Below are positions 8,936 through 57,106 of a stretch of 64,000 nt of DNA, in pieces; position 1 is the first letter of the stretch, and the number at the start of each line of letters is the position of its first letter. A program made the position numbers and the translations under genes. The notes under the pieces are model-generated. The model ran no database searches. It saw only the letters and a list, made by a program, of their open reading frames with translations, and was not told where the DNA came from. Origin of the DNA: an uncultured Candidatus Poseidoniales archaeon (GTDB lineage: Archaea; Thermoplasmatota; Poseidoniia; Poseidoniales; Thalassarchaeaceae); assembly GCA_963934165.1 (NCBI GenBank), contig CAWVXH010000004.1, positions 19,812-83,811 on the forward strand, given 5' to 3'.

Positions 8936-8968
8936 TTGAATCTCACCCCCGTGCGCGCGATGATCGCT

Positions 8969-31067: not shown

Positions 31068-32386
31068 TGACGATTGTAAAACCTAGTGATATTCTAATTG
31101 AGAAGACGACAAATCTGCTACAAAATGGGATGAATGCACGAGCTTTTGGCGACTTTGGTGTCCCTGAAGCATTGGGTGATGCCCGTTGGACGGATGAGTT
31201 AATTCTCTCGACTTGGCACATGGCAGAAACAGGTAAAATTCCTGAAAAATTAAATTTCAAAACCGGAAATTCAGGTGGTGGATTTGACCGACTTAAATTC
31301 CAATTCCTCGATGAATCCGAATGGCTCGAGCATTCTGAAAAAATTTCAACGAAACTCGATTTGAATCGCCGCGGAGATGAGAAGAACAAGATTTCCATCG
31401 ACATCCCATGGTATGGCGGCGGGATGTCATACGGGTCGGTCTCGGTTAACGTAATGATGTCACGAGCCCGAAATGCTCGGAGATGGAATTCCTTCATCTC
31501 GACCGGTGAAGGTGGTTATCCTACTGAATTAAGAGAGGTTGAAGAGAATGTTATCACCCAGGTTGCTACAGGATACTTCGGTGTCGAAGAGGATACGATT
31601 CAAGCTGCACCGATTATTGAATTCAAGTATGCACAGGGAGCAAAGCCAGGGCTTGGAGGACATTTATTGGCTGCAAAAGCCGGAGAGGAAGTCGCGAAAT
31701 TACGGGGCAGTGTTCCTTTTGTTAGCCTATTCAGCCCCTTCCCATTCCATTCGACTTATTCTGTTGAAGATCACTCTAAACACTTGGACTGGATAGAGAC
31801 AGTCAACCCAAAGGCCTTGCTTTCTGTCAAGGTGAGTACACCTCACGACGTCGATATGGTCGCTATCGGTTCATTCTATGCTGGCGCTCATATTATACAT
31901 CTGGACGGCGGTTATGGTGGCACAGGTGCGGCCCCGGAAATTGCTAAGAAAAATATCGCAATGCCGATTGAGTTGGCTATTCCTAAAGTCCACAAATTCC
32001 TCGTTGCCGAGGGGGTTAGAGATAAGGTGACACTCATCGCTAGTGGAGGAATTCGAACGGCTGATGATATGGCAAAAGCGATCGCTCTAGGTGCAGATGG
32101 TTGTGTCCTCGGAACAACTGATTTGGTTGGCCTTGGTTGCACACGTTGTTCAAATTGTGAAGGTGGCCCCTCTGGCCGTGGATGCCCATGGGGATTAACC
32201 ACAACCGATATCGAATTACAAGAATGGGTGCCTCAAGATTGGGCTGTTCAGCGACTTGATAATCTCTACGGCGCTATGCAGTGGCGAATGCGAGAAATCC
32301 TTCGTAAACTCGGTCTTGATGATGTAACTCAATTGCGTGGTCGAACTGATCTATTACAATATATTCCTGAGGAGGCGAGCGAATGA
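31067..32386 (+). CDS. Glutamate synthase FMN-binding domain protein (GltB domain 2-like)
   Basis: EFKYAQGAKPGLGGHLLAAK, HLDGGYGGTGAAP, ASGGIRTADDMAKAIALGAD and the Cys cluster GCTRCSNCEGGPSGRGCPWG. Confidence 0.85.
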   Translation: MTIVKPSDILIEKTTNLLQNGMNARAFGDFGVPEALGDARWTDELILSTWHMAETGKIPEKLNFKTGNSGGGFDRLKFQFLDESEWLEHSEKISTKLDLNRRGDEKNKISIDIPWYGGGMSYGSVSVNVMMSRARNARRWNSFISTGEGGYPTELREVEENVITQVATGYFGVEEDTIQAAPIIEFKYAQGAKPGLGGHLLAAKAGEEVAKLRGSVPFVSLFSPFPFHSTYSVEDHSKHLDWIETVNPKALLSVKVSTPHDVDMVAIGSFYAGAHIIHLDGGYGGTGAAPEIAKKNIAMPIELAIPKVHKFLVAEGVRDKVTLIASGGIRTADDMAKAIALGADGCVLGTTDLVGLGCTRCSNCEGGPSGRGCPWGLTTTDIELQEWVPQDWAVQRLDNLYGAMQWRMREILRKLGLDDVTQLRGRTDLLQYIPEEASE

Positions 32387-39048: not shown

Positions 39049-41418
39049 TTGCGAGGGGTTTGTGTACACTCGAATGAGGCAACCAAAATGATGGGGGACC
39101 GCGGAACTCAGTTTAGGGCGATTTCCTTCGCCCTCATTTTGGTTGGGTTGAGCCTAGCAAGTACTGTCATCGCTCAGCGAAACGCACCTGATGGACCCGG
39201 GGTGGAGTGGGAACTTCCGCAGAGTAATATGCTTTTTTTGAAGGGCGATTCCAGCTCACCTTTCTTAGATCGGAATTGGAGCGTCTTGACGGGTGAACCT
39301 TTGGGTGAAGCTCAATTTCAGAAAACTTTAGGCTATCAAAATTTAATCAATATTCAGTCTGCACCATTAGTCGAAGCGGCTCGATTCGAAGGAAATATTA
39401 CAGTTCATCTCTTCGCTGCATTAGAGACATCAAATGATGGTTGTAGATTCACAAATCCGGTTCCCGGTTCTCCTCTAGGCGCGACGACAACATTCTCCGT
39501 GTCACTTACCTTGGGTGGAGTCCAAGTTCTGACAAATGCAGAAACAGAATCAGTTGTTATGACTGAATCATTTACCGTTGCTCATGAATTCACCGTTCGA
39601 GCCACAGATGTAAACGCCAGCTTAGGGCCTGGTGATTTGGTAGGGTTGAAAATTGATGTTAGTCATGATTGCCTTCAGAGTGGAGTTCTCTATTGGGACA
39701 CTTACGATGCTCTGACCGGAATCGAGTTCGAAGGGAATCTTCTCGAACCCGAACTCGATAATGCAATAGATTCAAACGGTATGATTAGGATTGAATTCAC
39801 TCCAATTTCTCCTTGGGGTGGTGATGATTATGTCTGGCAGGTTCTGGAAATTATTGGACCGATGGACTATGCTCAAATGATCCATGGGAACGCACCTGAA
39901 GATTTACGTCTCGATCATTTCGAATCTCCTCATGGAACTCGAATCGGAGATGCGAACAGAACGGTGTTAACTTGGTCTGCAGACAAACCATTGGCACCAG
40001 GGACCTACATGGTCGATGCTTGTTTTGCACTTTCCGACCATAATCCAAGTGAGCCTTGTGATGCTTATGCAGTGATGCGATTTGAGGTTCCTGAACCTCA
40101 ATCAGCCTTACTAAATGGGTTATGGGCAGCAATTTTAATTCCACTAGCAATAATTGGGTGGATAGGCATTTCCATGCGGGATGCGATGTTACCATTACCT
40201 GCATACGGTGTAATTTTACTGTTAGCGATTGCAACATTAGGTCCAGCGCTTTACCTGCCAGATATTGAAATAGATTCTCCTCGAACCGATGGCGCGGCGC
40301 CGTCATTTGCACTTCTTTCACATGGTGAATCTGCTGAGATGATCACTCTTACCGATTTGATTAGCGATTCGGATGCAATCGTTGTTGGTTTATTCTCTCC
40401 GAGTTCACCAAATGCCGAACGCCAACGTAGTGATTTCCAAGCTGCATTGTTGATGATGGAAAGCAACATTAAATTTCTTCAAATCGCCACTGGTGAAGGC
40501 GTTCGCGCAGTTGATCTTGACAATTTAGCCGAAGCGGTCAACGAGAGTTGGCCAATATTGATGGATGAAGCGGATTCAAGCGTTGGAAAAGCCTTCCCTA
40601 GTGGTGCAAGTGATGCTGTAATCATCATCGATTCAGCGGGTTTTATCTCAGAATGGCGTCCTGGGACAATGTCAGCCCAAGAGATTCTTGACGCAGCGGA
40701 TAACGCTGCGAAAGGCTCTGGAAATAATCCGATAAAACTCCTCTCCTTAATTACTACAACTGCATTTTTACCTCTCATAATTCTCTCGATGCCCCGAGAA
40801 AGAAAATTCGAAATCCCTACCGAACCTTTGATTCCCGGCTCTGGCAGTGCGTTGACAATTGCAGCTTCAGGTCTCGGTTTCGCATTCTGGGCATTACCAA
40901 TATCTCTCCTTGCTGCTCTGGGGCTTGGCGCCTATTGGATTTGGATTGAAGTCATTCTCTCAATCATTCTAATTTACCACGGTGTGTCAATGTTAACACG
41001 AGGGTCGCTTAAGGAAATTGAGATAATTGGGGAATGGGCATATGGGAAAATACCCGAAAATTACCAAAATTGGCGTTCAAAATCGAGTTTTATCGATGAT
41101 GTTCACCTCGGGCTTTGGGTCGCATGGCTTGTCTGGCTAAGAATTCCTAACTTGATTCCACAAGGGGTCGGCTCACTCGCACGTTCAGGATTAGTTGGTA
41201 TTCCCCTATCATTGATTATGCTTGCCGGATTTGTTTTTGTCGCCGGTTTGTTAGTGGTTTTCTCGAGAATTATTGTACTTCTTCCTGGTAAGTTATCGAG
41301 ACTTCTGGGGTCAGTCAGCGTTGGTCTAAGGCCTCGAGCATGGGGTTTAGCCTCATGCATTCTAGGTGCTTGGATTCTGATTAGCCTAATACTTGGGCCT
41401 ATCCAAGGTTCGATGTAA
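39049..41418 (+). CDS. Large membrane protein: extracytoplasmic N-domain, thioredoxin-fold (TlpA-like) domain lacking CxxC, multiple TM segments
   Basis: Signal/anchor FALILVGLSLASTVIA. The TlpA-like stretch VVGLFSPSSPNAERQ...PILMDEADSSVGKAFPSGASDAVIIIDSAGFISEW is followed by a C-terminal hydrophobic region. The likely start is MMGDRG at 39088. Confidence 0.55.
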   Translation: MRGVCVHSNEATKMMGDRGTQFRAISFALILVGLSLASTVIAQRNAPDGPGVEWELPQSNMLFLKGDSSSPFLDRNWSVLTGEPLGEAQFQKTLGYQNLINIQSAPLVEAARFEGNITVHLFAALETSNDGCRFTNPVPGSPLGATTTFSVSLTLGGVQVLTNAETESVVMTESFTVAHEFTVRATDVNASLGPGDLVGLKIDVSHDCLQSGVLYWDTYDALTGIEFEGNLLEPELDNAIDSNGMIRIEFTPISPWGGDDYVWQVLEIIGPMDYAQMIHGNAPEDLRLDHFESPHGTRIGDANRTVLTWSADKPLAPGTYMVDACFALSDHNPSEPCDAYAVMRFEVPEPQSALLNGLWAAILIPLAIIGWIGISMRDAMLPLPAYGVILLLAIATLGPALYLPDIEIDSPRTDGAAPSFALLSHGESAEMITLTDLISDSDAIVVGLFSPSSPNAERQRSDFQAALLMMESNIKFLQIATGEGVRAVDLDNLAEAVNESWPILMDEADSSVGKAFPSGASDAVIIIDSAGFISEWRPGTMSAQEILDAADNAAKGSGNNPIKLLSLITTTAFLPLIILSMPRERKFEIPTEPLIPGSGSALTIAASGLGFAFWALPISLLAALGLGAYWIWIEVILSIILIYHGVSMLTRGSLKEIEIIGEWAYGKIPENYQNWRSKSSFIDDVHLGLWVAWLVWLRIPNLIPQGVGSLARSGLVGIPLSLIMLAGFVFVAGLLVVFSRIIVLLPGKLSRLLGSVSVGLRPRAWGLASCILGAWILISLILGPIQGSM

Positions 41419-46612: not shown

Positions 46613-49600
46613 ATGGGATTGTTAGTCATGCGTAGTCTGTCACCAATGTTTGTATTATCTCTAATGCTTTTGATGAGTCTTTCTCCAATGCTACTCCAAT
46701 CTGACCTTGGGGAAAGGCCAGAAGAAAGTTCTGCAGTACCAAAAGCCCTAATTGACTTTGAAGTGACTTCAATTGAGATAGGAAATGCATCTCGCGACGC
46801 AAAAACCTGGCTTCAACCAGATGGCTCAGAACAAGAATACGTCATGAGAGACGAGACGATTCAAATCAATGTTACTTTTACTCAAGCCGGCTCATCTGGT
46901 CAGCCTGCTGCTGCTGAAGGATTTTTACAGATTTGGCATCCAGTCGGATTTCTGATTGTAGAGTTCAATGTCAGCATGATTTTGTCAGGTTTCCAGTCTT
47001 CCAAAGAAGAATTTATCTGGACTCCAACAGCAGCTCATAGCGCTCTTGATGAAAATGGGTTTTTAGTTGGAGGTATTGAACTTAAAGGAATCATTGACGG
47101 TGGATTAGGTGATGATAATGAAGTGAATAATAACCTGCTCCGCAACATTCCAGTAGCGCTATGGCATGACCCAATGGAGAATGGATTTTGCGGTGATGTT
47201 GATAATGATCAAATCGTTGATTGCCCAAACCAATTACAATCTAATATCCCAACCTGGGTAGGTGCTGGTTATGATCCGGATGATTCACTCTCGTCAGACC
47301 CTGATAATTTCGGACACTGGCGTATGGATAACTCAGAAAGTGCTGAAGGTTCCCTTCATTGGCGAGTCTCGCGGTCTGGTTCTGATTATGGAAGTAATCG
47401 CCACGACCGCTTGTGGTGGGGTTGGTTCACCCCATTCCAGAGTTGCGAAGATCCAGGGCATGGCCTAGGATATGGGACTCTTGACCCAGCGGTGACCAGT
47501 TCATACGGTAATAATTTCTGCAAGATTAGAATACGTGGGTTCGATTTCTTATCGATGCATTTGGTTACCAATGCTTGGGGTGAGATGGCAGCCGGCGACC
47601 AAATTCGCCTCGAAGCCGATGCCGGCCCTGAAGAATATTACAATTACACGTCTCAGTCATTATCTACCACTTCAGGCGATTGGACACAATTGGTTTGGGA
47701 TATGACTGGTATGCATCCGTCTGCTGATTTTACGATGGCTTTCTTATTCGATTCGAATAGTTCCTATGCGAGTCAGGGAATCCATCTTGACTCATTCTTA
47801 CTTTTCGGGATAGAAAAGGTACCCGAATACACTCTTGACGTAGATTGTGATGATCCATTGCCCAATTCTTACATGGTTATTCCAGCTGATTCTGCTCCTC
47901 CTTCCCTTCATTGCACGATAAAAAATAATGGATATATCGATATCACACTGCGACTTTATACCGAGGTAACAAATCAATCTTGGATGTGGGGATTCCCACT
48001 GAGGATAGATTCGAACAACAATGTTGACCACGATAATTTTGTTGTTACAAAGGTCATTCATGCATTGGAGACGATGGAGACTTGGTTCAATTTGAGTATA
48101 CCTGATGGTGCTGGAGTACAAGATTTGGATTGGGATGTTTGGGTTAATGACGGTGTGACAAATTTGACAAAAAATTACATGCGCTTCCCGGTTTCCGTCA
48201 TGGCTTCGTATTCGTGTAAATTGCAGCAGGAATCTCTTCAAAATCCCGCCGCGACCTTATATCCCGGAGAAAGCGGAGTCGTGCCGATGATTTTGAAAAA
48301 CACTGGGAATCAATTAGCAACATGGAATTTAGGCGTCTCATTCCCCAATCAAGATTGGACAAATGATGCTGGGATTGAATGGCAGTTAAATGGCTCTGAG
48401 ATAACTCAAACCGAGTTGTCGATAATCGACGAAATAGCGATTGATGCAATTATTACCGTGCCAGATAGAGTTGAACCTGGTACTTACGAAATCACGTTGT
48501 TATCGAGCGGACAATCTCCTGCACAGTATCAAGCTGAATGGCTTATTTACATCGTCGTTCCAGTTTACTACGAACTTGATATTGAATCAGAAGTCAACAA
48601 TATGGTGGCGCCTGCTGATGATGCGTTACGATTGATTGAATTCAGATTAATCAATCATGGCAATGCTGAGGAAGCTTTCGATCTAAGTATTATCTCTGAT
48701 TGGCATCTTGATATCTCGATGAATACCGAGCAAACTTTCGAAATCGATCCATTCGGTGGAGATGTAACGGTCACGATGTTGTTGCCGATGCCTTATGGAA
48801 TTGTGAATGAAACTTATTCCATCACTTTAGTTGCAACCAGTAAAACCAATCCCGATTATCAGGCAAGTAAGAAAATTTTCTTGACCGTCCCTGAGACTTA
48901 TCTCGTCGAGGTCGAAGATATTGATATGCTCAATGAAGTCTTCCGCGGAGGTGATGATTCGAGGACAGTTAATTGGCGAATTTGGAATCGAGGAAATACA
49001 GTAGATTCCTTCCGAATCTCCTTTGATCACCTATCTGATGTATCGGTGAGTGACGTCGGATTGAACAACGGAATAACTCCCTATGTTGCCCCGGGGGAAT
49101 CATTCAATCTGACAGTTCGCTATTCCTTTGGCGATTTGGCATTTGGAGATCGGGTCATCGAATTAACTGCTACTAGTATCAATGCTGAATCTGCCGGTCA
49201 ATCTTCCTTCAACACTGGCGAAGCCGTTTTCCAAGTTGGGACGCAGGGTTGGATTAAACTACAACCACCAGCGCCATTGGTCATCGTTGAGAAAGGATAT
49301 GAAATTGAGCTTGTTTTTACAGTAACAAATAACCATCCTACCGATGCACAGTTGTTACGTACTGATATTGAGCGAGACTCTCCAATTTTCAATAATATCA
49401 TCGACGCTAGAGTCGACACAGGAGATCAGACATTTGTCCTAGATGCACAGGATTCCCGAACGATCACGGTTTTCTTGACTGTTACCGATGATAATTTGAA
49501 GTCGCTTTCTGAAAATGAAATGACATTTGAATTGATTTTAGAAGTCGATGGTGATATCGACAAGGTGTCAAGTTCAGCGACGGTAAGAATGCACAAAATT

Positions 49601-50215
49601 TCCCCGATAGAAGAAGGACCCAACAAGGGTTTCATCGCTCAAGTTGCGGGTAATATTCTGTTCATTCTTATCGGCCTCGGAGTGATAATTGGGGTAATGA
49701 TAGCCGCATTCGGAATTATGAAAACAGCTTCGAACCCTCTTGAGGTAGAATCCTCATTTGGTGATTATGAATTGACCGTAGGTGGGGCACCGTCGTTCGA
49801 TGGTATCCCAGAAGCACCTGAATTACCATCTGCAGATTCTGTTGCGAACTCAATGTTTGGTGGAACTCAAGATATGTTTGAGCAACCTGCCCCTCCACCA
49901 ATGCCAGATCCATCAGAAATGCCAATGCCTGAATCAATGCCTGAACCGGAGCAACCTGCTATGACGGAACCCGAGTCTCCGCCAACACCTGAGCCTGTTC
50001 CAATTTTGGAACCAAAAGTGGAAGAAATAGTAGATTCAACTGAAATTAAGGATGAAATTGAATTGGAAGAAGAACCAGTTGTGGAAGATTCTACGGAGCC
50101 TGAATTACCAGCCGGGGTACCACCTATTCCAGATGAAGGTCTTCCACCAGGATGGTCTATTGAGCAATGGGTTCACTATGGTCAGCAGTGGGTTGACCAG
50201 CAAAATCAACAATGA
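46613..50215 (+). CDS. Giant (1200 aa) acidic cell-surface protein with CARDB-like repeats, C-terminal TM anchor and Pro/Glu-rich tail
   Basis: Signal peptide, recurrent x-N-x-G-N/Y beta-sandwich signatures (KNNGYIDITL, KNTGNQLATWNL, INHGNAEEAFDL, WNRGNTVDSFRI), TM segment ILFILIGLGVIIGVMIAAFGI, then PAPPPMPDPSEMPMPESMPEPEQPAMTEPESPPTPEP. Confidence 0.65.
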   Translation: MGLLVMRSLSPMFVLSLMLLMSLSPMLLQSDLGERPEESSAVPKALIDFEVTSIEIGNASRDAKTWLQPDGSEQEYVMRDETIQINVTFTQAGSSGQPAAAEGFLQIWHPVGFLIVEFNVSMILSGFQSSKEEFIWTPTAAHSALDENGFLVGGIELKGIIDGGLGDDNEVNNNLLRNIPVALWHDPMENGFCGDVDNDQIVDCPNQLQSNIPTWVGAGYDPDDSLSSDPDNFGHWRMDNSESAEGSLHWRVSRSGSDYGSNRHDRLWWGWFTPFQSCEDPGHGLGYGTLDPAVTSSYGNNFCKIRIRGFDFLSMHLVTNAWGEMAAGDQIRLEADAGPEEYYNYTSQSLSTTSGDWTQLVWDMTGMHPSADFTMAFLFDSNSSYASQGIHLDSFLLFGIEKVPEYTLDVDCDDPLPNSYMVIPADSAPPSLHCTIKNNGYIDITLRLYTEVTNQSWMWGFPLRIDSNNNVDHDNFVVTKVIHALETMETWFNLSIPDGAGVQDLDWDVWVNDGVTNLTKNYMRFPVSVMASYSCKLQQESLQNPAATLYPGESGVVPMILKNTGNQLATWNLGVSFPNQDWTNDAGIEWQLNGSEITQTELSIIDEIAIDAIITVPDRVEPGTYEITLLSSGQSPAQYQAEWLIYIVVPVYYELDIESEVNNMVAPADDALRLIEFRLINHGNAEEAFDLSIISDWHLDISMNTEQTFEIDPFGGDVTVTMLLPMPYGIVNETYSITLVATSKTNPDYQASKKIFLTVPETYLVEVEDIDMLNEVFRGGDDSRTVNWRIWNRGNTVDSFRISFDHLSDVSVSDVGLNNGITPYVAPGESFNLTVRYSFGDLAFGDRVIELTATSINAESAGQSSFNTGEAVFQVGTQGWIKLQPPAPLVIVEKGYEIELVFTVTNNHPTDAQLLRTDIERDSPIFNNIIDARVDTGDQTFVLDAQDSRTITVFLTVTDDNLKSLSENEMTFELILEVDGDIDKVSSSATVRMHKISPIEEGPNKGFIAQVAGNILFILIGLGVIIGVMIAAFGIMKTASNPLEVESSFGDYELTVGGAPSFDGIPEAPELPSADSVANSMFGGTQDMFEQPAPPPMPDPSEMPMPESMPEPEQPAMTEPESPPTPEPVPILEPKVEEIVDSTEIKDEIELEEEPVVEDSTEPELPAGVPPIPDEGLPPGWSIEQWVHYGQQWVDQQNQQ

Positions 50216-50301: not shown

Positions 50302-51912
50302 ATGTACAACGGCCAACAACCAATTTTCATTATGAAAGAAGGCACTGAAAGAACTAGCGGTAGATCTGCTCAAAGTAATAATATCGCAGCAGCCAAAGCT
50401 GTTGCTGATGCGGTACGCTCAACACTCGGTCCAAAAGGTATGGACAAAATGCTTGTAGACAGTATGGGTGATGTTGTTATTACCAATGATGGTGCAACTA
50501 TACTCAAGCAGATGGATATTACCAACCCCGCAGCGAAGATGATTATCGAGGTTGCAAAAACACAGGAACAGCATTGTTACGATGGGACGACTAGCGCGGT
50601 TGTAATCGCTGGTGAACTTTTGAAGCGAAGCGAGGATTTAATCGAACAAAATGTTCATCCAACTGTAATTTGTGATGGGTTTAGACTTGCAGCGCAAAAA
50701 GCTAGCGAATTAATCGAAAATCATTCGAACGACGTTTCAGAAGAGATTCTAACTGAGGTCGCAAAAACAGCACTCACGGGTAAAAGTGCAGGGGCAGTCA
50801 AAGAATTCCTTGCAGATATTTCTGTTCGGGCAGTACTTTCAGTTTCCCAAGAAGATGGGGATGAAATAATCGTCGATCTTGATGATATTAAAGTCGAGAA
50901 AAAGCAGGGTGGCTCTATCGGAAGCAGCACTTTGGTCGATGGAATTATTCTCGATAAGGAGCGAGTTCATTCAGGGATGCCTCGCTCAGTATCTGATGCG
51001 AAAATTGCATTGATTAACTCTGCAATCGAGGTTAAGAAAACCGAAATCGATGCTAAAATTCAGATTACCGATCCTAAAATGTTGTCACAATTCCTCGACG
51101 AGGAAGAAGCATATCTGAAATCCCTTGTCGATAAAATTCAATCAGCGGGTGCGAATGTATTGATTTGCCAGAAGGGTATCGATGATTTGGCACAACACTA
51201 TATGGCAAAGGCTGGAATCTTTGCTCTTCGTCGAGCAAAGAAGAGCGATATGGAAGCGCTTTCGAAGGCAACTGGAGGGAAAATCATCACTAATGTTGAT
51301 GATCTTTCGTCTACAGACCTAGGTCTAGCTGCTAAGGTCGATGAAAGAAAAATCGGTGAATCGGATATGGTTTTCGTCACCGGTTGCCCTCAGGCAAAAT
51401 CTGTCTCCGTTCTACTTCGTGGTGGCACCGAGCATGTCATCGATGAAATCGAGCGCGCTTTCGAAGACGCCATTGGCGTTGTCGCCGTGGCTCACGAAGA
51501 TAAGGCAGTCCTAACTGGTGGTGGCTCAGTCCTCGCTGCGATTAGCCGTGATCTCCGTGCATATGCTGAGGGAATCGGCGGTCGTGAACAAATGGCGATC
51601 GAAGCATTCTCTGGAGCACTCGAAGTTATTCCCAGAACCCTCGCAGAGAATGCTGGTTTAGATCCGGTTAACACGATTATTGATTTGCGTAAAGCTCACT
51701 CAGAAGGTAAATCGAATTTTGGAGTTAATGTATATGATGGTGGAGTCGCCGATATGTCCGCAGCAAACGTATTCGAACCAAGCCGTGTAGTTGAGCAAGC
51801 GATTCAATCCGCAACTGAAACTGCGGTGATGATTCTGCGGATTGACGATGTAATTTCGAGCCGCGCTAGCAGTCCTATGGATGGTGGCGATTTCGATGGC
51901 TTCGATATGTGA
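50302..51912 (+). CDS. ths: Thermosome subunit (group II chaperonin)
   Basis: [27 protein letters not shown], and a C-terminal acidic tail. 536 aa. Confidence 0.95.
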
Positions 51913-52013: not shown

Positions 52014-53645
52014 ATGTCTGCAGACCGTTCACTCCTCGTTCTTTTTGGTTCTCAATCTGGAAATGCAGAGGACATGGCAGACCAGATTGGTAAAGCTGCT
52101 TCAAAGTATAATTTGGAAGCAACTGTCAAGGGTATGGATGAGGTCAAAATAGCAGATTTGACAAATTATTCGAGAATTCTCATCACCTGTAGCACATGGG
52201 GTGAGGGAGAGCAACCAGACAATGCTGAAGACTTGTGGCTAGATGCTGAAGCAGATGATTCCCCGTCAATGGCCAAATGTAATTTCTCTGTACTTGCTTT
52301 GGGTGATTCATCTTACGAGTTTTATTGTGAATCCGGAAAACAATGGGATGGCTGGCTCGAATCAAAGGGTGCAACAAGAGTATATCAGCGAGTTGATTGC
52401 GATGTGGAATACGAAGAACCCGCTGCATCTTGGCTAACTGAAGCATTAGCATGTATGGGGGCAGTCGATGATGCTGGAGTTTTCCAAGCCGCAGAAGTAG
52501 ATGCGATGAAGAATGCAGCTTCTGGTAGTTCTAGCGCCTCTATTTCATCCGCGACTGAATCTGCCATCCCTGCTGTCGAACTCTCAACTGACCCTGATTT
52601 AAAATCTGAATCCATGCAGGTTGAGGTCAGCATATTCCGATACGACCCAACTACTTCGTCAACTGGCAAGGACACATGGGTTTGTGCATTCCCTGGCTAT
52701 ATTTCTGCCCTTGAAATGCTTCGGACTTTGAAAAATACTCAAGATGGTTCTCTGACATTCCGCGATGGGACTGCCGATGATCCATCGACGGCAATTTCCA
52801 TTAACGGCCGCTATATCCTTCCAGGGAATTGCCGAATCGACTCTCTCGCACCAATCAGAAATGGTGGAATTCGAATTCGAATAGAACCGCTTCCTGGATT
52901 CGAAGTAATCAGAGATTTAGTCGTCGATACATGGCCTCTCGAGCAAAACCGAGAAATTTCTGAACCATGGATGGTCGCAGCTACTCGAACCGGTGCAAAT
53001 ACCCCACAAGGTCCAATCGGAACTATGGATTCGCAAATTGCAGACAAACTCCATTCAATATCATCTTTCCACAGCGCAGAAATTTTGCATGCTTCTTCCG
53101 ATGCCACACCCCATTCTAACACATATCTTGGTCCTTCAGTAGTTCTACAATCTTGGGCTCGCCTCAATGACCCAAGATCCTCTGCATCAAAGAGAGCAGC
53201 TCTACAAATGGTTCTCGACGGAGAAGGTGGAATCAAATCGGAAACAGATTTAGCATCGATTCGCCGTCAAGGTAAAACTACGATAATTCACGATTCTCTT
53301 CTCGAATGTAAGATTGCTACGCTATCTCGTGATGGTTATGGTGGTCGACACGGTAAGCATGTTTGGTGGTATACACTTTCAGTAAAGAGCAGTGGGCGCG
53401 TGAATGATACGATGATTTTCAGACAAGTTCTCGGACCAATCGGCTTGATGGGAAATTTATTCTCTGGCGTTACAGCAAGAATGGCTCTCGGATTTACTCG
53501 AACTGGAGGCTCTATGTTTTACGATATGTTAGCACTTGTCGCTCCACCTGCTGGTTTAGGGAAAATGCCAAAACAATTCAATGCTTCAGTCGATAAACAT
53601 CACGAGGTTGTCGCAATATTCAATGAGATGGATGGTCGATTTTGA
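52014..53645 (+). CDS. Flavodoxin domain fused to an SdhB/FrdB-like protein that lacks the Fe-S cysteine ligands
   Basis: Flavodoxin region: LLVLFGSQSGNAEDMA, CSTWGEGEQPDNAEDLW, VLALGDSSYEFYC. SdhB-like region: SIFRYDP, GSLTFRDG, IEPLPGFEVIRDLVVD, YLGPSVVLQSWARLNDPRS. Start chosen at ATG 52014. The maximal ORF starts at 51942. Confidence 0.65.
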   Translation: MSADRSLLVLFGSQSGNAEDMADQIGKAASKYNLEATVKGMDEVKIADLTNYSRILITCSTWGEGEQPDNAEDLWLDAEADDSPSMAKCNFSVLALGDSSYEFYCESGKQWDGWLESKGATRVYQRVDCDVEYEEPAASWLTEALACMGAVDDAGVFQAAEVDAMKNAASGSSSASISSATESAIPAVELSTDPDLKSESMQVEVSIFRYDPTTSSTGKDTWVCAFPGYISALEMLRTLKNTQDGSLTFRDGTADDPSTAISINGRYILPGNCRIDSLAPIRNGGIRIRIEPLPGFEVIRDLVVDTWPLEQNREISEPWMVAATRTGANTPQGPIGTMDSQIADKLHSISSFHSAEILHASSDATPHSNTYLGPSVVLQSWARLNDPRSSASKRAALQMVLDGEGGIKSETDLASIRRQGKTTIIHDSLLECKIATLSRDGYGGRHGKHVWWYTLSVKSSGRVNDTMIFRQVLGPIGLMGNLFSGVTARMALGFTRTGGSMFYDMLALVAPPAGLGKMPKQFNASVDKHHEVVAIFNEMDGRF

Positions 53646-54505
53646 TGGTTCTGAAATACGCTTACCACCCTGGTAATGTAGCACACTCCGGGTCACCAGA
53701 AATTAATGAAACAATGATGCCACTGGCTCACACTCTTGGGATTAAACTGACTCCTCTCGATGGAGCTACAAGCTGTGGTGCTGGAATTATTCGCCAAGCA
53801 AACCACCGCTTGCAACTCGCGCTGAATGCGCGTATCTTCGCTCAAGCTGAGGCACTTGGATTAGAAATTATGACTCCATGTGCCGCAACAGCGGGGAATT
53901 TGTCAGAAGATTTGGCGACACTGCGATCCAATCCAATTCTTCTTGAAGAAATAAATGAGATTTTACAACAAACTAGTGGTTTGACTTTTAGTGGAGGCAC
54001 TGAAGTCCACCATTTATTGCACGTTATCGTCGATGAATTCGGTTTGGATAAGTTGAGTAATTTTGTAAAAAACCGAGTTGATTTTTCGATCGCTGGTTAT
54101 TATGGCCCAAATATGCAGCAATCTGGGGCATGCGGGGGGGATGATGTCTTCGATCCAAATTATTTTGAGCAACTAATCTCTGCTCTCGGTGGTACTCCAG
54201 TAGAATGGGAAAGCAGAACCCAGAGTGTTGGTGTCCCCGGTTTATTTTCTGAAGAATTAACGGTTCTTCGCCAAGCGGCCGCAGTTCTTTCTGATGCTCG
54301 TTCTGAAGGTGCTGATATGATAGTCAGCGCATGTAATCTTTCTCACTCAATACTCGATATCTATCAAGGAAAGGCTAGCCGAGTAACTGGAATTCAAACC
54401 AAAATCCCAGTTGCTCACCTTTGTGAAATTCTTTCATTTGCACTAGGCCATCACACGGATAGATTCGCGCAACTACGTACCAGAATTGCAGTTATTGGCG
54501 ATTGA
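53645..54505 (+). CDS. HdrB/SdhE/GlpC-like CCG-domain protein with degenerate cysteine motifs
   Basis: YAYHPGN...SCGAGII...RIFAQAEALGLEIMTPCAATAGN, then YYGPN...SVGVPG...GADMIVSACNLSH follows the two-CCG-domain layout. The ATG overlaps the upstream TGA (TGATG). Confidence 0.6.
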   Translation: MVLKYAYHPGNVAHSGSPEINETMMPLAHTLGIKLTPLDGATSCGAGIIRQANHRLQLALNARIFAQAEALGLEIMTPCAATAGNLSEDLATLRSNPILLEEINEILQQTSGLTFSGGTEVHHLLHVIVDEFGLDKLSNFVKNRVDFSIAGYYGPNMQQSGACGGDDVFDPNYFEQLISALGGTPVEWESRTQSVGVPGLFSEELTVLRQAAAVLSDARSEGADMIVSACNLSHSILDIYQGKASRVTGIQTKIPVAHLCEILSFALGHHTDRFAQLRTRIAVIGD

Positions 54506-57106
54506 TTATTGCGGTTTTTGTCTTTTTCCGAACATATGCAATAATTCTCTGACCTGAACTTCTGAAATTCCTTGAATTTCTTTAAGATCATCTTCTTCTG
54601 CCCATACAAGATTAGCAAAAGTTCCAAATTTCTCTAATAATTGCAAGGATAATTCAGAATCAATGCTCGGAATTGATTCAAGCATTGCTCGAACAGCAAT
54701 TCTTTCATCGTCATTTTTGATTCTTATTTCACGGGCTCCGGCAGCAGCTTGAGTCACTGGATCTGACCAAAATTCCGGCTTTACTGCCTCTAATCTATCT
54801 TGTGCGCTACCACTTAAACCATCAAGCATTGATTCTTCTCTTCTGGATGCAACCGTTAGGAATCGAGCGGTTTCTGCTCCATCTTTGGTCGTTACAACAG
54901 GGATTCCAAAATCTAATGATAACGTTGTCAATGCTCCCATCAATGCATGTGGATGAACCCTTGGATTTTGGAAAAGTCCCTCTCCCTCGATTAGAATTAA
55001 GGTACGAGGTGCTGCGCCGACCAATCTACTGGCCTGTTCCAAAAGTCGGCCATCGATCAATGAATCGACAAAATCGCGCACAGTTTTTCTTTCTACTAAA
55101 ATTCGTTCGCCAATTTTGTAATCCCCGGTAGCGAGTCTCTCGATTTTTATTTCAGCACCGAGTGCACGTAAACGTGAGATTACGGCGCTGTTCAATTCAC
55201 GATCATCGGCTGTAATAATAGCGCCTGGCACATCAGGAGGGCCAATTTCTTCGAGAGCAGATAGGTCTTGGGATATCGATATGGGCGGGGGGCTGTTCAC
55301 TATTTTTTGAGCTGGACTATCTGAATTTCCATCATCTTGCGATGAATTTTTTGAGGCTGTTTCAAATTGCTCCAATCCTGTTTGTCCACGAGGCCGGAAC
55401 GTTTGAGGTGGTAATTTAGCAACAGATGTCATTTTTTCCTTCATTTCAACTAGATCAGTCTCAACTATACTCGGTCGAGATTCCTCACGAACTTTCATGA
55501 TGAACTCTTTCGCTGAAGTTTTTCCTTCTGAATTTGAAACTATGAATTCATCAAGATTTGAAAGATCAATATGTGTGGATCTTGGTAATTTCCGCCGAAC
55601 TCTCTGAACTGCTCGTTGCATATTTTCTTCTTTTCGCTCGGCTGCAATCTTTGCTCCTTCATCTTTAGTATCTTCAGCAATTAGTACGACCACTTCACCT
55701 TCACGGTGTCTGCCGGTTCTACCACGACGTTGGATTGTTCGTATTTCACTAGGCACTGGTTCGTAAAATATCACCAAGTCTGCGGATGGAATATCCAAAC
55801 CCTCTTCCGCCACTGAGGTGGCTACCAATACATTGAATTCACCTTCACGAAACCGATTTAATCGGTCAATTTGCTCCTTCGGTTTTAATCCAGTTCGTCC
55901 ATTTCTGCTTGATTGACCAACAAATTGAATCGCCTTGGTCCCATCTAATCCATCAAGAGCTAATTCGATAGCAGCGACCGAATCTCTGAAGGTAGCGAAA
56001 ACGATAATCTTGCTCATCGAATCTCTTCGTAGTCGTGCTCTGACTAAACGCCTAACAGTTCCTACCTTTGTATGGATTTCATCCATCTGGTCCAAACTTT
56101 GTTTCAAACTTCGAATCCGTTTATCCCTGAGGAAGTTTTTTACAGATTTTTTTGATGAGTCACCATCCTTTTCCATTCTACTAAGAAATTCTCTTGCTGC
56201 AGCAATTCCTTGAGACAACAAATGGTTGAGGAGGTGATTTAAGCGCATAGCCATTGATAGATTTGAAACCGAGGAGTAAGCATTTGATTCTCCGCGTTGA
56301 ATTGCTTCTTGAGCACGCCCCATCGCTTGGGTTAGGCCACGGTAAGAGGGATATCCTGAGAGGACATATCTCCCGAGGCGACGTTCTCTATCGATAATTC
56401 CATTCAACCATAATCGAAGCGGCTCGGCTAATTCTCGAATTTCGTCAGGAACGATTACTTTCAATTCTTGAACATCGAGACCGGCAAGATATGAGTTAAG
56501 CATTGCATCACTCGATGTCCTAATATGAATTCGTTCAACATCGAGACGACCACAAATTTCTTCGACTACTTCTGTGCGTGAACCCGGGCTCGCAGTTGTG
56601 GCAAGAATAAGCCCGTCTTCCGCCTGTGAATTGTATAATTCAGCAGCCTGAGCCATGGGGTGATTTCCCGTAGCGTGATGAGCCTCATCGACCACCAATA
56701 AGCAACAGTTTGAAAGATTGAGAATTCCCTTTACAACATCGTTGCGAACGACATGTGGTGTAGCAATGATTAATCGAGAAGAATCCCATAAATTTTCACG
56801 CTTTTTGGGAGTTATCTCACCTGTAATGGAAATTGGATTAAGATCGTGAATATGTTTCATCACCGGTTCAAGACTTTTGAGATGTTGATCAACCAATGCA
56901 TTTGTCGGTGCCAGAAAGATTACTCCACCTGAATTAGTCCGCAATCTTTCAGCGATTACCATCCATGCGACTGCCGTCTTTCCAGCGGCTGTCGGCAACA
57001 CCAACAACATCGACCCAGATAGGGCTTCATCGACCGCTTCCAATTGATATCCTCTGGCTTCGATTGAGCCCGCGATTAAGCCAGAGTGTTGAACTTCATC
57101 GCGCAT
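54506..57106 (-). CDS. hef: Hef: helicase-associated endonuclease for fork-structured DNA (XPF/FANCM homologue)
   Basis: SF2 helicase motifs (LPTAAGKT, VVDEAHHATG, SVAEEGLDIP, QRRGRTGR). The C-terminal ERCC4 nuclease has GDYKIG...VERKTVRDFVDSLIDGRL. HhH-like tail. Confidence 0.9.
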   Translation of the reverse strand: MRDEVQHSGLIAGSIEARGYQLEAVDEALSGSMLLVLPTAAGKTAVAWMVIAERLRTNSGGVIFLAPTNALVDQHLKSLEPVMKHIHDLNPISITGEITPKKRENLWDSSRLIIATPHVVRNDVVKGILNLSNCCLLVVDEAHHATGNHPMAQAAELYNSQAEDGLILATTASPGSRTEVVEEICGRLDVERIHIRTSSDAMLNSYLAGLDVQELKVIVPDEIRELAEPLRLWLNGIIDRERRLGRYVLSGYPSYRGLTQAMGRAQEAIQRGESNAYSSVSNLSMAMRLNHLLNHLLSQGIAAAREFLSRMEKDGDSSKKSVKNFLRDKRIRSLKQSLDQMDEIHTKVGTVRRLVRARLRRDSMSKIIVFATFRDSVAAIELALDGLDGTKAIQFVGQSSRNGRTGLKPKEQIDRLNRFREGEFNVLVATSVAEEGLDIPSADLVIFYEPVPSEIRTIQRRGRTGRHREGEVVVLIAEDTKDEGAKIAAERKEENMQRAVQRVRRKLPRSTHIDLSNLDEFIVSNSEGKTSAKEFIMKVREESRPSIVETDLVEMKEKMTSVAKLPPQTFRPRGQTGLEQFETASKNSSQDDGNSDSPAQKIVNSPPPISISQDLSALEEIGPPDVPGAIITADDRELNSAVISRLRALGAEIKIERLATGDYKIGERILVERKTVRDFVDSLIDGRLLEQASRLVGAAPRTLILIEGEGLFQNPRVHPHALMGALTTLSLDFGIPVVTTKDGAETARFLTVASRREESMLDGLSGSAQDRLEAVKPEFWSDPVTQAAAGAREIRIKNDDERIAVRAMLESIPSIDSELSLQLLEKFGTFANLVWAEEDDLKEIQGISEVQVRELLHMFGKRQKPQ

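What the first reader, a model, noticed from the sequence alone, without database searches (positions are those of the whole stretch)
52014..54505. Flavodoxin fused to an SdhB-like protein with no Fe-S cysteines, coupled to a CCG-degenerate HdrB/SdhE-like partner
Residues ~25-170 of the 52014..53645 product look like a long-chain flavodoxin (LLVLFGSQSGNAEDMA, CSTWGEGEQPDNAEDLW, VLALGDSSYEFYC). The rest can be aligned by eye along the whole length of succinate dehydrogenase/fumarate reductase iron-sulfur subunits. Comparisons are to E. coli SdhB as I recall it. SIFRYDP matches SIYRYNP. ALEMLRTLKNTQDGSLTFRDG matches LDALIQLKEKDPSLSFRRSCREG. IRIEPLPGFEVIRDLVVD matches IVIRPLPGLPVIRDLVVD. YLGPSVVLQSWARLNDPRS matches FIGPAGLLAAYRFLIDSRD. 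Where SdhB carries its three cluster motifs, this protein reads differently: TFRDGTADDPSTAISINGRYILPGNC for the 2Fe-2S CxxxxCxxC...C, AEILHASSDATPH for CxxCxxCxxxCP, and SETDLASIRRQGK for CxxxxxCxxxCP. Only one of about eleven ligand cysteines survives. The downstream gene starts on the upstream stop (TGATG) and follows the two-CCG-domain layout of HdrB and type-E SdhE, again with substituted cysteines: HPGN for PGC, SCGAG for CCG, CAATAG for CxxC, YYGP for YYGC, SVG for CCG. No sdhA-like flavoprotein gene is adjacent. Two partner subunits of an Fe-S electron-transfer module have apparently both lost their clusters while one gained an FMN domain. This could be an iron-sparing redox module or a pseudo-enzyme scaffold. 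I am not aware of such an architecture being described.
Basis: partly seen in the sequence, partly recalled or inferred. Interest (0 to 1): 0.8.

Follow-up and report, generated by a model that had tools for sequence, protein, structure and literature searches.

The report
Cysteine-less SdhB/SdhE pair with tethered flavodoxin
Marine Group II archaea, among the commonest archaea in the surface ocean, all carry a strongly conserved two-gene module descended from the iron-sulfur subunits of succinate dehydrogenase that has lost its iron-sulfur binding cysteines and instead carries flavodoxin or ferredoxin domains on a flexible tether; what it does has not been tested.

Summary
Gene 1 (52014-53645) is a CysJ-type FMN flavodoxin domain, a flexible linker and a full-length SdhB homolog. 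That homolog keeps 18 of 22 near-invariant non-Cys columns of canonical type-E SdhBs and 0 of 11 cluster-ligand Cys columns. Gene 2 (53645-54505, TGATG overlap) has the HdrB/SdhE fold (Foldseek TM 0.85) and keeps 3 of 10 CCG cysteines.

It is not a pseudogene. dN/dS is 0.02-0.07 in every segment. Relatives occur in 246 GTDB species genomes, and all 80 loci kept are Poseidoniales (MGII) by record title or by shared synteny. The neighbourhood is always thermosome, pair, Hef, ribosomal operon.

The closest Cys-bearing relatives lie in sdhA-sdhB-sdhE type-E operons. The family's N-terminal module varies: Fld-Fld in 42 loci, Fd-Fld in 25, Fld in 13 (the window's type, from a recent deletion of the second flavodoxin). 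Deep lineages have Fd or Fd-Fd. The partner keeps an intact N-terminal CCG site only where a ferredoxin is present, so potential iron sites fall stepwise.

Most likely this is a redox-active tethered-carrier module on a cluster-free scaffold. Donor and acceptor are inferred only. I could not retrieve a Cys-bearing MGII SdhB. No prior description was found.

The parts
52014..53645 (+). Gene 1: flavodoxin-linker-SdhB*-tail fusion, 543 aa plus stop
   Evidence: ORF. The start agrees with homologs beginning MSxxRSLLVLFGSQ. Pfam, NCBIfam and PDB hits.
52026..52463 (+). CysJ/CPR-type FMN flavodoxin domain (res 5-150); orthologous to the first (distal) flavodoxin of two-flavodoxin relatives
   Evidence: Flavodoxin_1 E 8.8e-31. 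cysJ FMN region E 3e-36. Foldseek 1ykg TM 0.89, rmsd 1.4. Model pLDDT about 85-90. Scores higher on the Fld1 profile than on Fld2 (256 against 217 bits). FMN loops FGSQSGNA, STWGEG and GDSSY are present.
52464..52604 (+). Acidic Ser/Ala-rich linker (res 151-197); the second flavodoxin of relatives would sit at its end
   Evidence: pLDDT below 40. Composition and pI 4.05. Clean 183-column gap against 725-aa relatives.
52605..52943 (+). SdhB* N-terminal domain (2Fe-2S ferredoxin fold) without its four Cys ligands (res 198-310); reads FRDGTADDPSTAISINGR
   Evidence: Fer2_3 E 2.3e-9. 1nek_B res 1-107 E 2.7e-6. Ligand columns are T, gap, T and G. dN/dS 0.052.
52944..53303 (+). SdhB* C-terminal ferredoxin-like domain without its Cys ligands (res 311-430); LHASSDATPH replaces CxxCxxCxxxC and SETDLASIRRQGK replaces CxxCxxCxxxCP
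   Evidence: NCBIfam SdhB models reach res 394-407. Alignment columns. dN/dS 0.065.
53304..53642 (+). Basic, most conserved C-terminal tail (res 431-543). It is homologous to the C-terminal extension of type-E SdhBs, with a family-specific insert GFTRTGG...APPAG. Inferred arm that clasps the partner.
   Evidence: Alignment to the canonical extension (G.RH...G.LNE...GK.P). The type-E profile reaches HdrC beyond the classical SdhB end. dN/dS 0.023. pI 9.7. pLDDT below 35 as a monomer. No PDB or Pfam hit on its own.
53643..53647 (+). TGATG: stop of gene 1 overlaps the start of gene 2 by one base
   Evidence: Sequence. The same 1-nt overlap is found in most of the loci where the partner start could be placed.
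53645..54505 (+). Gene 2: SdhE*/HdrB-fold partner, 286 aa plus stop, with 3 of 10 CCG cysteines
   Evidence: HdrB 8rvv_B E 3.5e-29 over the full length. TIGR03288 E 6.1e-34 and MFR SdhE E 4e-32. AF2 pTM 0.81. Foldseek HdrB TM 0.85. dN/dS 0.044.
53660..53887 (+). Degenerate N-terminal CCG domain (res 6-81): C11N, C43S and C82T, with C44 and C79 kept; H8 and H14 gained in the crown group
   Evidence: Pfam CCG E 3.9e-8. Site table over 84 sequences.
54092..54349 (+). Degenerate C-terminal CCG domain (res 150-235): YYGP, SVG and CNLSH; only C230 is kept, plus family-specific C163 and H234
   Evidence: HdrB alignment. Site table. Low pLDDT at 158-166 and 194-200.

Best explanation
WHAT IT IS (shown). 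A two-gene operon found across Poseidoniales (Marine Group II). It descends from the sdhB-sdhE part of a type-E succinate:quinone oxidoreductase operon.
- The SdhB descendant (SdhB*) keeps the SdhB scaffold and the HdrC-like C-terminal arm, but none of the 11 Fe-S ligand cysteines.
- The SdhE descendant (SdhE*) keeps the HdrB fold, but only 3 of 10 CCG cysteines.
- One or two small electron-carrier domains are fused to the N-terminus of SdhB* through ~45-residue flexible linkers. These are CysJ-type FMN flavodoxins, and in some lineages a CxxCxxC...CP ferredoxin. The window copy has one flavodoxin.

HOW IT MOST LIKELY WORKS (inferred).
1. SdhB* and SdhE* form a stable, cluster-free heterodimer. 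The basic tail of SdhB* clasps SdhE* in the way HdrC clasps HdrB.
2. Like type-E SdhE and other CCG proteins (GlpC, GlcF, LutA, EtfD), this body sits peripherally at the membrane-quinone interface. It has no transmembrane helix.
3. The tethered FMN domain is the only redox centre. It swings like the FMN domain of diflavin reductases. It picks up low-potential electrons from a soluble or docked oxidoreductase and hands them to an acceptor, most plausibly quinone, bound at the SdhE* face.
4. The fixed Fe-S wire of the ancestor has thus been replaced by mobile carriers. In open-ocean lineages the carriers themselves became iron-free.
For: Ancestry:
- The nearest Cys-bearing relatives (P0277, P0278) lie in sdhA-sdhB-sdhE(CCG) operons.
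- They have the type-E hallmark of a second CxxCxxCxxxCP motif and the same C-terminal extension (definition in PMC2754724).

Selective loss of ligands with the scaffold kept: 0 of 11 Cys columns against 18 of 22 non-Cys columns.

Still functional:
- dN/dS is 0.02-0.07 in all segments and all 81 ORFs are intact.
- Relatives are in 246 GTDB species.
- Synteny is identical even in 31-47%-identical lineages.

Still redox-active:
- FMN-binding loops are intact in 117-123 of 123 flavodoxin domains.
- The domain superposes on the CysJ FMN domain.
- The distal carrier is interchangeable between flavodoxin and ferredoxin or absent (42, 25 and 13 of 80 loci). That fits an electron-relay role.
- An intact N-terminal CCG site in the partner occurs only together with a ferredoxin.

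Heterodimer:
- 1-nt overlap of the two genes.
- The tail is the most constrained segment (0.023) and is unfolded as a monomer.
- The type-E extension is HdrC-like.

Peripheral location: no transmembrane segment, and a basic tail on otherwise acidic proteins.

CCG relatives by fold are quinone-linked modules, LutA and EtfD.

MGII genomes are reported to have orphan ferredoxin-linked parts (RnfB without RnfACDEG), so a route for low-potential electrons into the chain is an open question there (PMC6336850).
Against: - No donor or acceptor has been identified. The neighbours (thermosome, Hef, ribosomal proteins) say nothing about function.
- FMN binding, heterodimer formation and membrane association are all inferred.
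- The crown-group switch at the former N-terminal CCG site (F/Y8 to H, C11 to N, x14 to H, C43 to S, C82 to T, with C44 and C79 kept) could be a new His2Cys2 metal site. In that case the body is not cofactor-free.
- The strongly conserved SdhB N-domain, whose ancestral job is to sit on SdhA, is not explained by a quinone-only scaffold model.
- A CysJ-type FMN domain normally takes electrons from an FAD domain. That fits a flavoprotein partner at least as well as a ferredoxin-dependent donor.
Confidence: 0.4

Rival explanations
1. Iron-free (all-flavin) complex II. SdhB* still docks on SdhA. The CysJ-type FMN domain swings into the crater left by the deleted 2Fe-2S loops, takes electrons from the SdhA FAD as in a diflavin reductase, and delivers them to quinone at SdhE*. 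Either this pair is the only SdhB/SdhE of MGII, or it alternates with a canonical SdhB.
For: - The SdhB N-domain signature motifs are kept under strong constraint.
- The 2Fe-2S loop is shortened by a 4-residue deletion.
- The FMN domain is of the type that accepts electrons from FAD.
- The MGII core-gene table lists sdhA in 98% of genomes and no sdhD. Its single 'sdhC' cluster is probably this partner, because JGI gives the partner that same label.
- I could not retrieve any Cys-bearing MGII SdhB.
Against: - The same table lists a separate 'sdhB' gene cluster in 92% and 90% of genomes, alongside 'cysJ' clusters (about 100%) that best fit this fusion. Tully calls MGII complex II canonical.
- No sdhA is adjacent in any of about 90 loci.
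- Deep lineages carry only low-potential ferredoxins. These suit electron input, not succinate oxidation.
- If SdhB* sits on SdhA as usual, any external FMN is far from the FAD (inference from known complex II geometry).
Confidence: 0.2
2. Flavodoxin-driven reductase with a remodelled catalytic site in SdhE*. The former CCG pocket, now His2Cys2 (H8, H14, C44, C79) plus C163, C230 and H234, binds a new metal or substrate. The tethered FMN feeds it to reduce a small molecule, such as a disulfide, as in HdrB and thiol:fumarate reductase.
For: - The five-position switch at the N-terminal site is perfectly correlated in 73 crown sequences, with two histidines gained.
- C163 (78 of 84) and H234 (82 of 84) are conserved.
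- SdhE* is as constrained as any enzyme (dN/dS 0.044).
- HdrB uses exactly this pocket for catalysis (established knowledge of HdrB; PMC2754724).
Against: - HdrB chemistry needs both non-cubane clusters, and the C-terminal site was already lost at the root of the family.
- The former cluster loops are the least confident parts of the model.
- The geometry could not be checked because the tool gives no coordinates.
Confidence: 0.15
3. Non-redox pseudo-enzyme. The SdhB*/SdhE* body is a structural, regulatory or assembly factor, for example for SdhA or another flavoprotein. The flavodoxin acts only as a redox or flavin sensor, or as a docking tag.
For: - All ancestral cofactor sites in the body are gone.
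- The pair lies among housekeeping genes with constant synteny.
- One carrier domain can be lost without loss of the gene. This happened twice independently.
Against: - At least one carrier domain is always kept, with intact cofactor-binding loops and dN/dS 0.05.
- Carriers are swapped between ferredoxin and flavodoxin rather than decaying.
- Deep lineages keep a full Cys5 site in the partner.
Confidence: 0.15
4. Decaying pseudogenes, or a mis-alignment that hides intact cysteine sets.
For: None found beyond the unusual lack of cysteines.
Against: - ORFs are intact in 81 of 81 loci and dN/dS is 0.02-0.07.
- More than 2000 homologs of gene 1 and more than 500 of gene 2 were found.
- The body plus tail of gene 1 holds only 3 cysteines, none at a ligand column.
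- The replacement motifs are themselves conserved.
Confidence: 0.01

Closest known systems
Type-E succinate:quinone oxidoreductase SdhB + SdhE (Sulfolobus/Acidianus SdhABEF; Campylobacter/Wolinella MFR SdhABE)
   Same: - Gene order is sdhB then sdhE.
- The SdhB is about 310-350 aa with a C-terminal extension.
- SdhE has two CCG-type domains and no transmembrane helix.
- The nearest Cys-bearing homologs are of this type and sit in sdhA-sdhB-sdhE operons (PMC2754724).
   Different: - No sdhA in the operon.
- 0 of 11 SdhB ligand cysteines and 3 of 10 SdhE cysteines are kept.
- Flavodoxin or ferredoxin domains are fused N-terminally.
- The tail has a family-specific insert (GFTRTGG...APPAG).
- Scores are far below the curated NCBIfam cut-offs.
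Heterodisulfide reductase HdrB-HdrC (PDB 5odc, 7bkb, 8rvv)
   Same: - The partner has the HdrB fold over its full length (TM 0.85; E 3.5e-29).
- The type-E SdhB C-terminal half, including the start of the extension, is HdrC-like.
   Different: - HdrB carries two non-cubane [4Fe-4S] clusters on 10 cysteines; here 7 of those are replaced.
- The positions of the HdrC ferredoxin clusters are also Cys-less here.
- No hdrA is present.
FMN domain of diflavin reductases (E. coli CysJ, CPR, NDOR1, NOS reductase)
   Same: - It is the best sequence and fold match of the flavodoxin domain.
- The FMN loops are conserved.
- It is tethered by a flexible hinge, as in those enzymes.
   Different: - There is no FAD/NADPH (FNR-like) domain in the protein.
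- The tether leads to an SdhB scaffold instead.
- The domain is often duplicated or paired with a ferredoxin.
Thiol:fumarate reductase TfrB and other CCG quinone-linked modules (GlpC, GlcF, LutA, EtfD)
   Same: - TfrB combines SdhB-like and CCG parts (NCBIfam hit NF004898; PMC2754724).
- LutA and EtfD are the next fold matches of the partner.
- All of them connect a flavoprotein to an acceptor.
   Different: All of those keep their Fe-S ligands, and none has tethered flavodoxin domains.

Membership tests
SdhB/FrdB iron-sulfur subunit (TIGR00384, NF004616) | Homologous two-domain fold (Fer2_3 N-domain plus ferredoxin-like C-domain) | tested here: met
   Fer2_3 E 2.3e-9; NF004616 E 2.5e-15 over res 200-394; 1nek_B E 9e-7. 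18 of 22 near-invariant non-Cys columns are kept.
SdhB/FrdB iron-sulfur subunit (TIGR00384, NF004616) | Cys (or Asp) ligands of the [2Fe-2S] centre S1 | tested here: not met
   The ligand columns read T, gap, T and G in the window, and none is conserved as Cys in the family.
SdhB/FrdB iron-sulfur subunit (TIGR00384, NF004616) | Cys ligands of the [4Fe-4S] S2 and [3Fe-4S]/[4Fe-4S] S3 centres | tested here: not met
   The columns read F, A, L, S and E, I, G in the window. 0 of 7 are kept.
SdhB/FrdB iron-sulfur subunit (TIGR00384, NF004616) | Score above the curated family cut-off | tested here: not met
   56.3 bits against a cut-off of 228 (NF004616); 50.5 against 88 (TIGR00384).
SdhB/FrdB iron-sulfur subunit (TIGR00384, NF004616) | Encoded with, and bound to, an SdhA/FrdA flavoprotein | tested here: inconclusive
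   No sdhA is adjacent in the window or in about 90 related loci. Physical association is not testable here.
Type-E SdhE / HdrB (CCG-domain proteins; TIGR03288, NF042965, PF02754) | HdrB-type fold with two CCG-type halves | tested here: met
   Full-length alignment to HdrB, E 3.5e-29. Foldseek TM 0.85.
Type-E SdhE / HdrB (CCG-domain proteins; TIGR03288, NF042965, PF02754) | Two CXnCCGXmCXXC motifs (10 Cys) | tested here: not met
   Only C44, C79 and C230 remain in the window and in 73 of 84 sequences. Deep lineages keep 5 of 5 in the N-terminal motif and 1 of 5 in the C-terminal motif.
Type-E SdhE / HdrB (CCG-domain proteins; TIGR03288, NF042965, PF02754) | Score above the curated family cut-off | tested here: not met
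   117.6 bits against 345 (HdrB); 111.9 against 500 (MFR SdhE). Only one CCG Pfam hit, 33.7 bits against a cut-off of 20.6.
Flavodoxin / FMN domain of diflavin reductases (PF00258) | Flavodoxin fold with FMN phosphate loop and the two isoalloxazine-flanking loops | tested here: met
   PF00258 107 bits against a cut-off of 25. 1ykg TM 0.89. The FGSQSGN[SA], STWGEG and GD[ST]xY loops are present in 117-123 of 123 domains. FMN binding itself was not tested.
Assimilatory sulfite reductase flavoprotein CysJ (TIGR01931) - the automated label | FMN domain plus FAD/NADPH (FNR-like) domain | tested here: not met
   Only positions 59-216 of the 597-position model match; 125 bits against a cut-off of 668. 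There is no FAD or NAD Pfam domain.
   flav_long E 5.3e-9 against flav_short E 9.4e-17 and cysJ 3e-36. The structural neighbours are CysJ/CPR FMN domains and short-chain flavodoxins.

The most novel reading that the evidence does not exclude
In crown-group Poseidoniales the pair, together with SdhA, forms a respiratory complex II that contains no iron-sulfur cluster at all. The three-cluster wire of SdhB and the CCG clusters of SdhE are replaced by one or two swinging CysJ-type FMN domains, possibly with a remodelled His2Cys2 site in SdhE*. That would be an all-flavin succinate:quinone oxidoreductase evolved under oceanic iron scarcity. The Fd-Fd, Fd-Fld, Fld-Fld and Fld forms preserved in living lineages would be the intermediate steps.
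Probability: 0.15. Interest if true: 0.95.

Novelty: new variant of a known kind. Interest (0 to 1): 0.7.

Why it matters
- **Textbook assumption.** SdhB-type subunits are textbook Fe-S wires. Here an SdhB/SdhE pair is under strong purifying selection after losing every SdhB ligand and most SdhE ligands, and it carries tethered flavodoxins instead. That suggests a fixed Fe-S chain can be replaced in evolution by mobile flavin carriers.
- **Abundance.** The family appears universal in Marine Group II archaea, one of the most abundant archaeal groups in the surface ocean. Pipelines label it 'cysJ' and 'sdhC', which distorts metabolic reconstructions of sulfur assimilation and complex II in these organisms.
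- **Iron economy.** Living lineages keep a graded series, from ferredoxin plus an intact CCG site to flavodoxin only. This makes iron-economy evolution of a respiratory-type module directly testable against ocean iron gradients.
- **Open question in MGII.** It may answer how low-potential electrons enter the MGII respiratory chain.

Tried and rejected
1. **Finding MGII's own Cys-bearing SdhB or SdhA. All routes failed.**
   - Cluster look-ups of 20 canonical hits gave no MGII names.
   - tblastn of SdhA and SdhB against the window and all loci found only the family gene.
   - The 10-kb left extension of the window has citrate synthase and TatC but no sdh genes.
   - The last homolog search, with a type-E SdhB profile, returned only bacterial-type hits in its top 120.
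   - So the existence of a canonical MGII SdhB rests only on a KEGG-based table.
3. **Monomer model of gene 1.** Only the flavodoxin domain is confident, and the SdhB core and tail are poor. Its fold search is therefore dominated by flavodoxins, with SdhB only at rank 48.
4. **Tail alone.** No PDB or Pfam hit.
5. **Literature.** No paper describes the architecture. An archaeal fusion survey's supplements do not list it. An MGII metatranscriptome paper does not mention it.
6. **PDB 3kwl as a possible solved analogue.** It is uncharacterized, and it is not hit by the window N-domain alone.
7. **Rejected readings.** Pseudogene, mis-aligned cysteines, long-chain flavodoxin, and true CysJ.

Full report
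**1. Setting**

The window is archaeal, with about 43-45% G+C. Around the finding lie a thermosome gene (50302-51912), a Hef-type helicase-nuclease on the minus strand (54506-57106) and the ribosomal protein operon L3/L4/L23/L2 (from 57403). A 98%-identical locus is in 'Candidatus Poseidoniales archaeon UWMA-0266' (L007). The organism is therefore a Marine Group II (MGII) archaeon.

**2.

Gene 1 runs from ATG 52014 to the stop at 53645 (543 aa). Gene 2 starts at ATG 53645, one base inside the TGA (TTTTGATGG), and ends at 54505 (286 aa).

Profile searches give:
- Flavodoxin_1, E 8.8e-31 (res 9-140).
- Fer2_3, E 2.3e-9 (res 205-306).
- SdhB subfamily NF004616, E 2.5e-15 (res 200-394).
- For gene 2: CCG E 3.9e-8, HdrB TIGR03288 E 6.1e-34 and MFR SdhE E 4e-32, the last two over the full length.

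All the NCBIfam scores lie far below the curated cut-offs. These are homologs, not members in good standing.

Against solved structures the matches are CysJ's FMN domain (6e-21), E. coli SdhB 1nek_B (9e-7; the N-domain alone gives 2.7e-6) and HdrB 8rvv_B (3.5e-29, residues 4-269 to 2-270). AlphaFold models superpose on the CysJ FMN domain 1ykg (TM 0.89) and on HdrB (TM 0.85 over 286 columns; partner pTM 0.81).

**3. The cysteines really are gone, and selectively**

Among columns that are near-invariant in the canonical set, 0 of 11 Cys columns are kept in the family. In contrast, 18 of 22 non-Cys columns are kept. Three of the four lost ones directly flank a ligand Cys.

The replacements are themselves conserved family motifs:
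- FRDG..DDP.TAI..NGR at the 2Fe-2S site.
- LH.SSD..P at the first CxxCxxCxxxC motif.
- AETDL.SI.R at the second.

In the partner, the HdrB alignment shows these changes: C to N11, CC to S43-C44, CxxC to C79..T82, C to P155, CC to S194-V195, CxxC to C230..S233. Three of ten cysteines remain.

**4. Not decay**

Gene 1 has more than 2000 homologs and gene 2 more than 500, mostly unnamed or labelled Poseidoniales or Thalassarchaeaceae. A scan of GTDB species genomes found 246 with a confirmed relative. All 80 loci kept are Poseidoniales by record title or by shared synteny.

All 81 copies examined have intact ORFs. Nei-Gojobori dN/dS over 56-59 unsaturated pairs is:

| Segment | dN/dS |
|---|---|
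| Flavodoxin | 0.050 |
| Linker | 0.065 |
| SdhB* N-domain | 0.052 |
| SdhB* C-domain | 0.065 |
| Tail | 0.023 |
| Partner | 0.044 |

The one-base overlap of the two genes recurs in most loci. The neighbourhood of thermosome, pair, Hef and ribosomal operon is constant, even in lineages only 31-47% identical.

**5. Ancestry: type-E sdhB-sdhE**

At 50% clustering the family is only about 14 full-length clusters. There is then a gap down to E of about 1e-10, where Cys-rich SdhBs of 309-327 aa appear. These carry a second full CxxCxxCxxxCP motif. That motif is the hallmark of type-E enzymes, whose S3 centre is a [4Fe-4S] (PMC2754724). They also carry a C-terminal extension that aligns with the family's conserved tail (G.RH...G.LNE...GK.P).

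The two best such hits sit in sdhA-sdhB-sdhE(CCG) operons, one of them archaeal (MCM, fumarase). A profile of these type-E SdhBs matches HdrC chains out to profile positions 252-265, past the point where classical SdhBs end at about 235. HdrC is the subunit that holds HdrB (established knowledge of the HdrABC structure).

The MGII pair is therefore the sdhB-sdhE half of a type-E operon. It lacks sdhA and the ligands, and it has gained N-terminal carrier domains.

**6. The carrier module varies**

Most relatives are about 725 aa because they have two tandem flavodoxins. The window copy has a clean deletion of the second one.

Domain counting over the 80 species loci gives Fld-Fld-body 42, Fd-Fld-body 25 and Fld-body 13. 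Here Fd is a CxxCxxC...CP mono-cluster ferredoxin (Fer4_13). Deeper lineages have Fd-body (P0252) and Fd-Fd-body (P0254).

Single-flavodoxin forms arose at least twice. Twelve species keep Fld2, while the window and L007 keep Fld1. The FMN loops are intact in 117-123 of 123 flavodoxin domains.

The flavodoxin is CysJ/CPR-type and closer to short-chain than long-chain models.

**7. The partner loses its sites stepwise**

| Lineage | N-terminal CCG | C-terminal CCG |
|---|---|---|
| Canonical SdhE (L090, L091) | 5 of 5 Cys | 5 of 5 Cys |
| Sampled family lineages with an intact N-terminal site (L081-L085, L087, L088, L094, L095; every one carries a ferredoxin) | 5 of 5 | C230 only |
| Crown group: 73 of the 82 family sequences in the alignment, including the window | 2 of 5 | C230 only |
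| L092 (Fld-Fld) | 2 of 5 | C230 only |
| L093 (Fd-Fld) | 1 of 5 | C230 only |

Flavodoxin-only fusions never pair with the intact site. If every site binds its ancestral cluster, the iron count per module falls from up to 18 Fe in the ancestor to 12, 8, 4 and finally 0.

In the crown group the change at the N-terminal site is a perfectly correlated five-position switch: F/Y8 to H, C11 to N, x14 to H, C43 to S and C82 to T, with C44 and C79 kept. This could mean an empty site or a new His2Cys2 site. I could not test the geometry.

**8. Physical properties**

Neither protein has a transmembrane segment (maximum 19-residue Kyte-Doolittle mean 1.16). The tail is basic (pI 9.7), while all other parts are acidic (pI 4-5.5). 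The tail is disordered in the monomer model (pLDDT below 35). The partner's low-confidence loops are exactly the former cluster loops.

**9. Interpretation**

Shown:
- Homology and type-E ancestry.
- Selective loss of ligands with the scaffold retained.
- Strong purifying selection.
- Coupling of the two genes.
- Intact FMN motifs.
- Carrier swapping and stepwise loss of Cys sites.

Inferred:
- SdhB* and SdhE* form a heterodimer through the HdrC-like tail.
- The body is a cluster-free scaffold at the membrane-quinone interface, as proposed for type-E SdhE and other CCG proteins (PMC2754724). LutA and EtfD are the next fold matches.
- The tethered FMN domain shuttles electrons from a donor oxidoreductase to an acceptor bound by the body.

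I rate this at about 0.4.

The main rival, at about 0.2, is that SdhA is the donor, which would make an all-flavin complex II. For it: the conserved SdhB N-domain and the FAD-accepting type of FMN domain. Against it: a KEGG-based MGII core-gene table lists a separate 'sdhB' cluster in 92% and 90% of genomes, beside 'cysJ' (about 100%, probably this fusion) and a single 'sdhC' (probably this partner). The ancestral carriers were also low-potential ferredoxins.

I could not retrieve that canonical SdhB myself, so the point stays open.

**10. Novelty**

The searched literature mentions the pair only under automated names: 'sulfite reductase NADPH flavoprotein' and 'succinate dehydrogenase cytochrome b subunit', next to the MGII ribosomal operon (PMC6741140). 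Searches for the architecture returned nothing.

I classify it as a new variant of a known kind, a type-E SdhB/SdhE-derived module. Interest is high because it is universal in a very abundant ocean lineage, contradicts the usual annotation, and offers a natural series for the replacement of Fe-S wiring by flavin carriers.

Noticed in passing
L074:6001-8994 (MAG REDSEA-S11_B3N4): The two genes form one 997-aa ORF. Gene 1 stops at ...VAPPA, lacking the last ~35 tail residues, and runs through DGRKIL into the partner, which is 67% identical to the window's. This is either a natural SdhB*-SdhE* fusion or an assembly artefact.
   Followed up: partly
P0323, P0354, P0351, P0374: Other short SdhB-like proteins (217-237 aa) from unrelated environmental lineages also have few cysteines (4-7) and lack the cluster motifs. 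P0323 has a 6-member cluster on contigs of up to 130 kb. Loss of cysteines in SdhB-like proteins may not be unique to MGII.
   Followed up: no
PDB 3kwl (H. pylori, 514 aa): This uncharacterized solved protein matches the SdhB N-domain profile (E 1e-5, res 24-138) and the partner's HdrB-like fold (TMq 0.68). It looks like a single-chain SdhB-N plus CCG-like protein of unknown function.
   Followed up: partly
window 53645-54505; partner positions 8, 11, 14, 43, 82: There is a perfectly correlated five-residue switch between deep lineages (F/Y, C, x, C, C) and 73 crown sequences (H, N, H, S, T), with C44 and C79 invariant. This could be a remodelled His2Cys2 metal site rather than an empty one.
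   Followed up: partly
window 18324-21482 (+): A 1052-aa protein combines two different solute-binding modules, Peripla_BP_6 (res 67-385) and SBP_bac_5 (res 507-959). It lies ahead of ABC permeases (one unusually long at 672 aa) and two oligo_HPY ATPases.
   Followed up: no
window 46613-50215 (+): A 1200-aa acidic protein with a proline- and glutamate-rich C-terminus has no Pfam hit on its orthologs. It is conserved directly upstream of the thermosome in all relatives, including the most divergent.
   Followed up: no
window 54506-57106 (-) and L001, L003, L094: The neighbouring Hef-like gene changes architecture between lineages. It is 866 aa (helicase plus ERCC4-type nuclease region) here, a 581-584 aa helicase only in L001 and L003, and split into a 609-aa helicase gene and a 265-aa ERCC4 gene in L094.
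   Followed up: no
window 29556-34962 (+) and 39049-41418 (+): A split archaeal-type glutamate synthase (439 aa Glu_synthase; 859 aa GATase_6 plus GXGXG) is preceded by a 503-aa ORF with no Pfam hit. A separate 789-aa ORF also has no Pfam hit at 1e-5.
   Followed up: no
window 7652-11406 (-): A carotenoid cluster with a phytoene synthase-type gene (a second SQS_PSY gene is called next to it in L005) and an amine-oxidase-type desaturase. It is consistent with retinal supply for proteorhodopsin in MGII.
   Followed up: no
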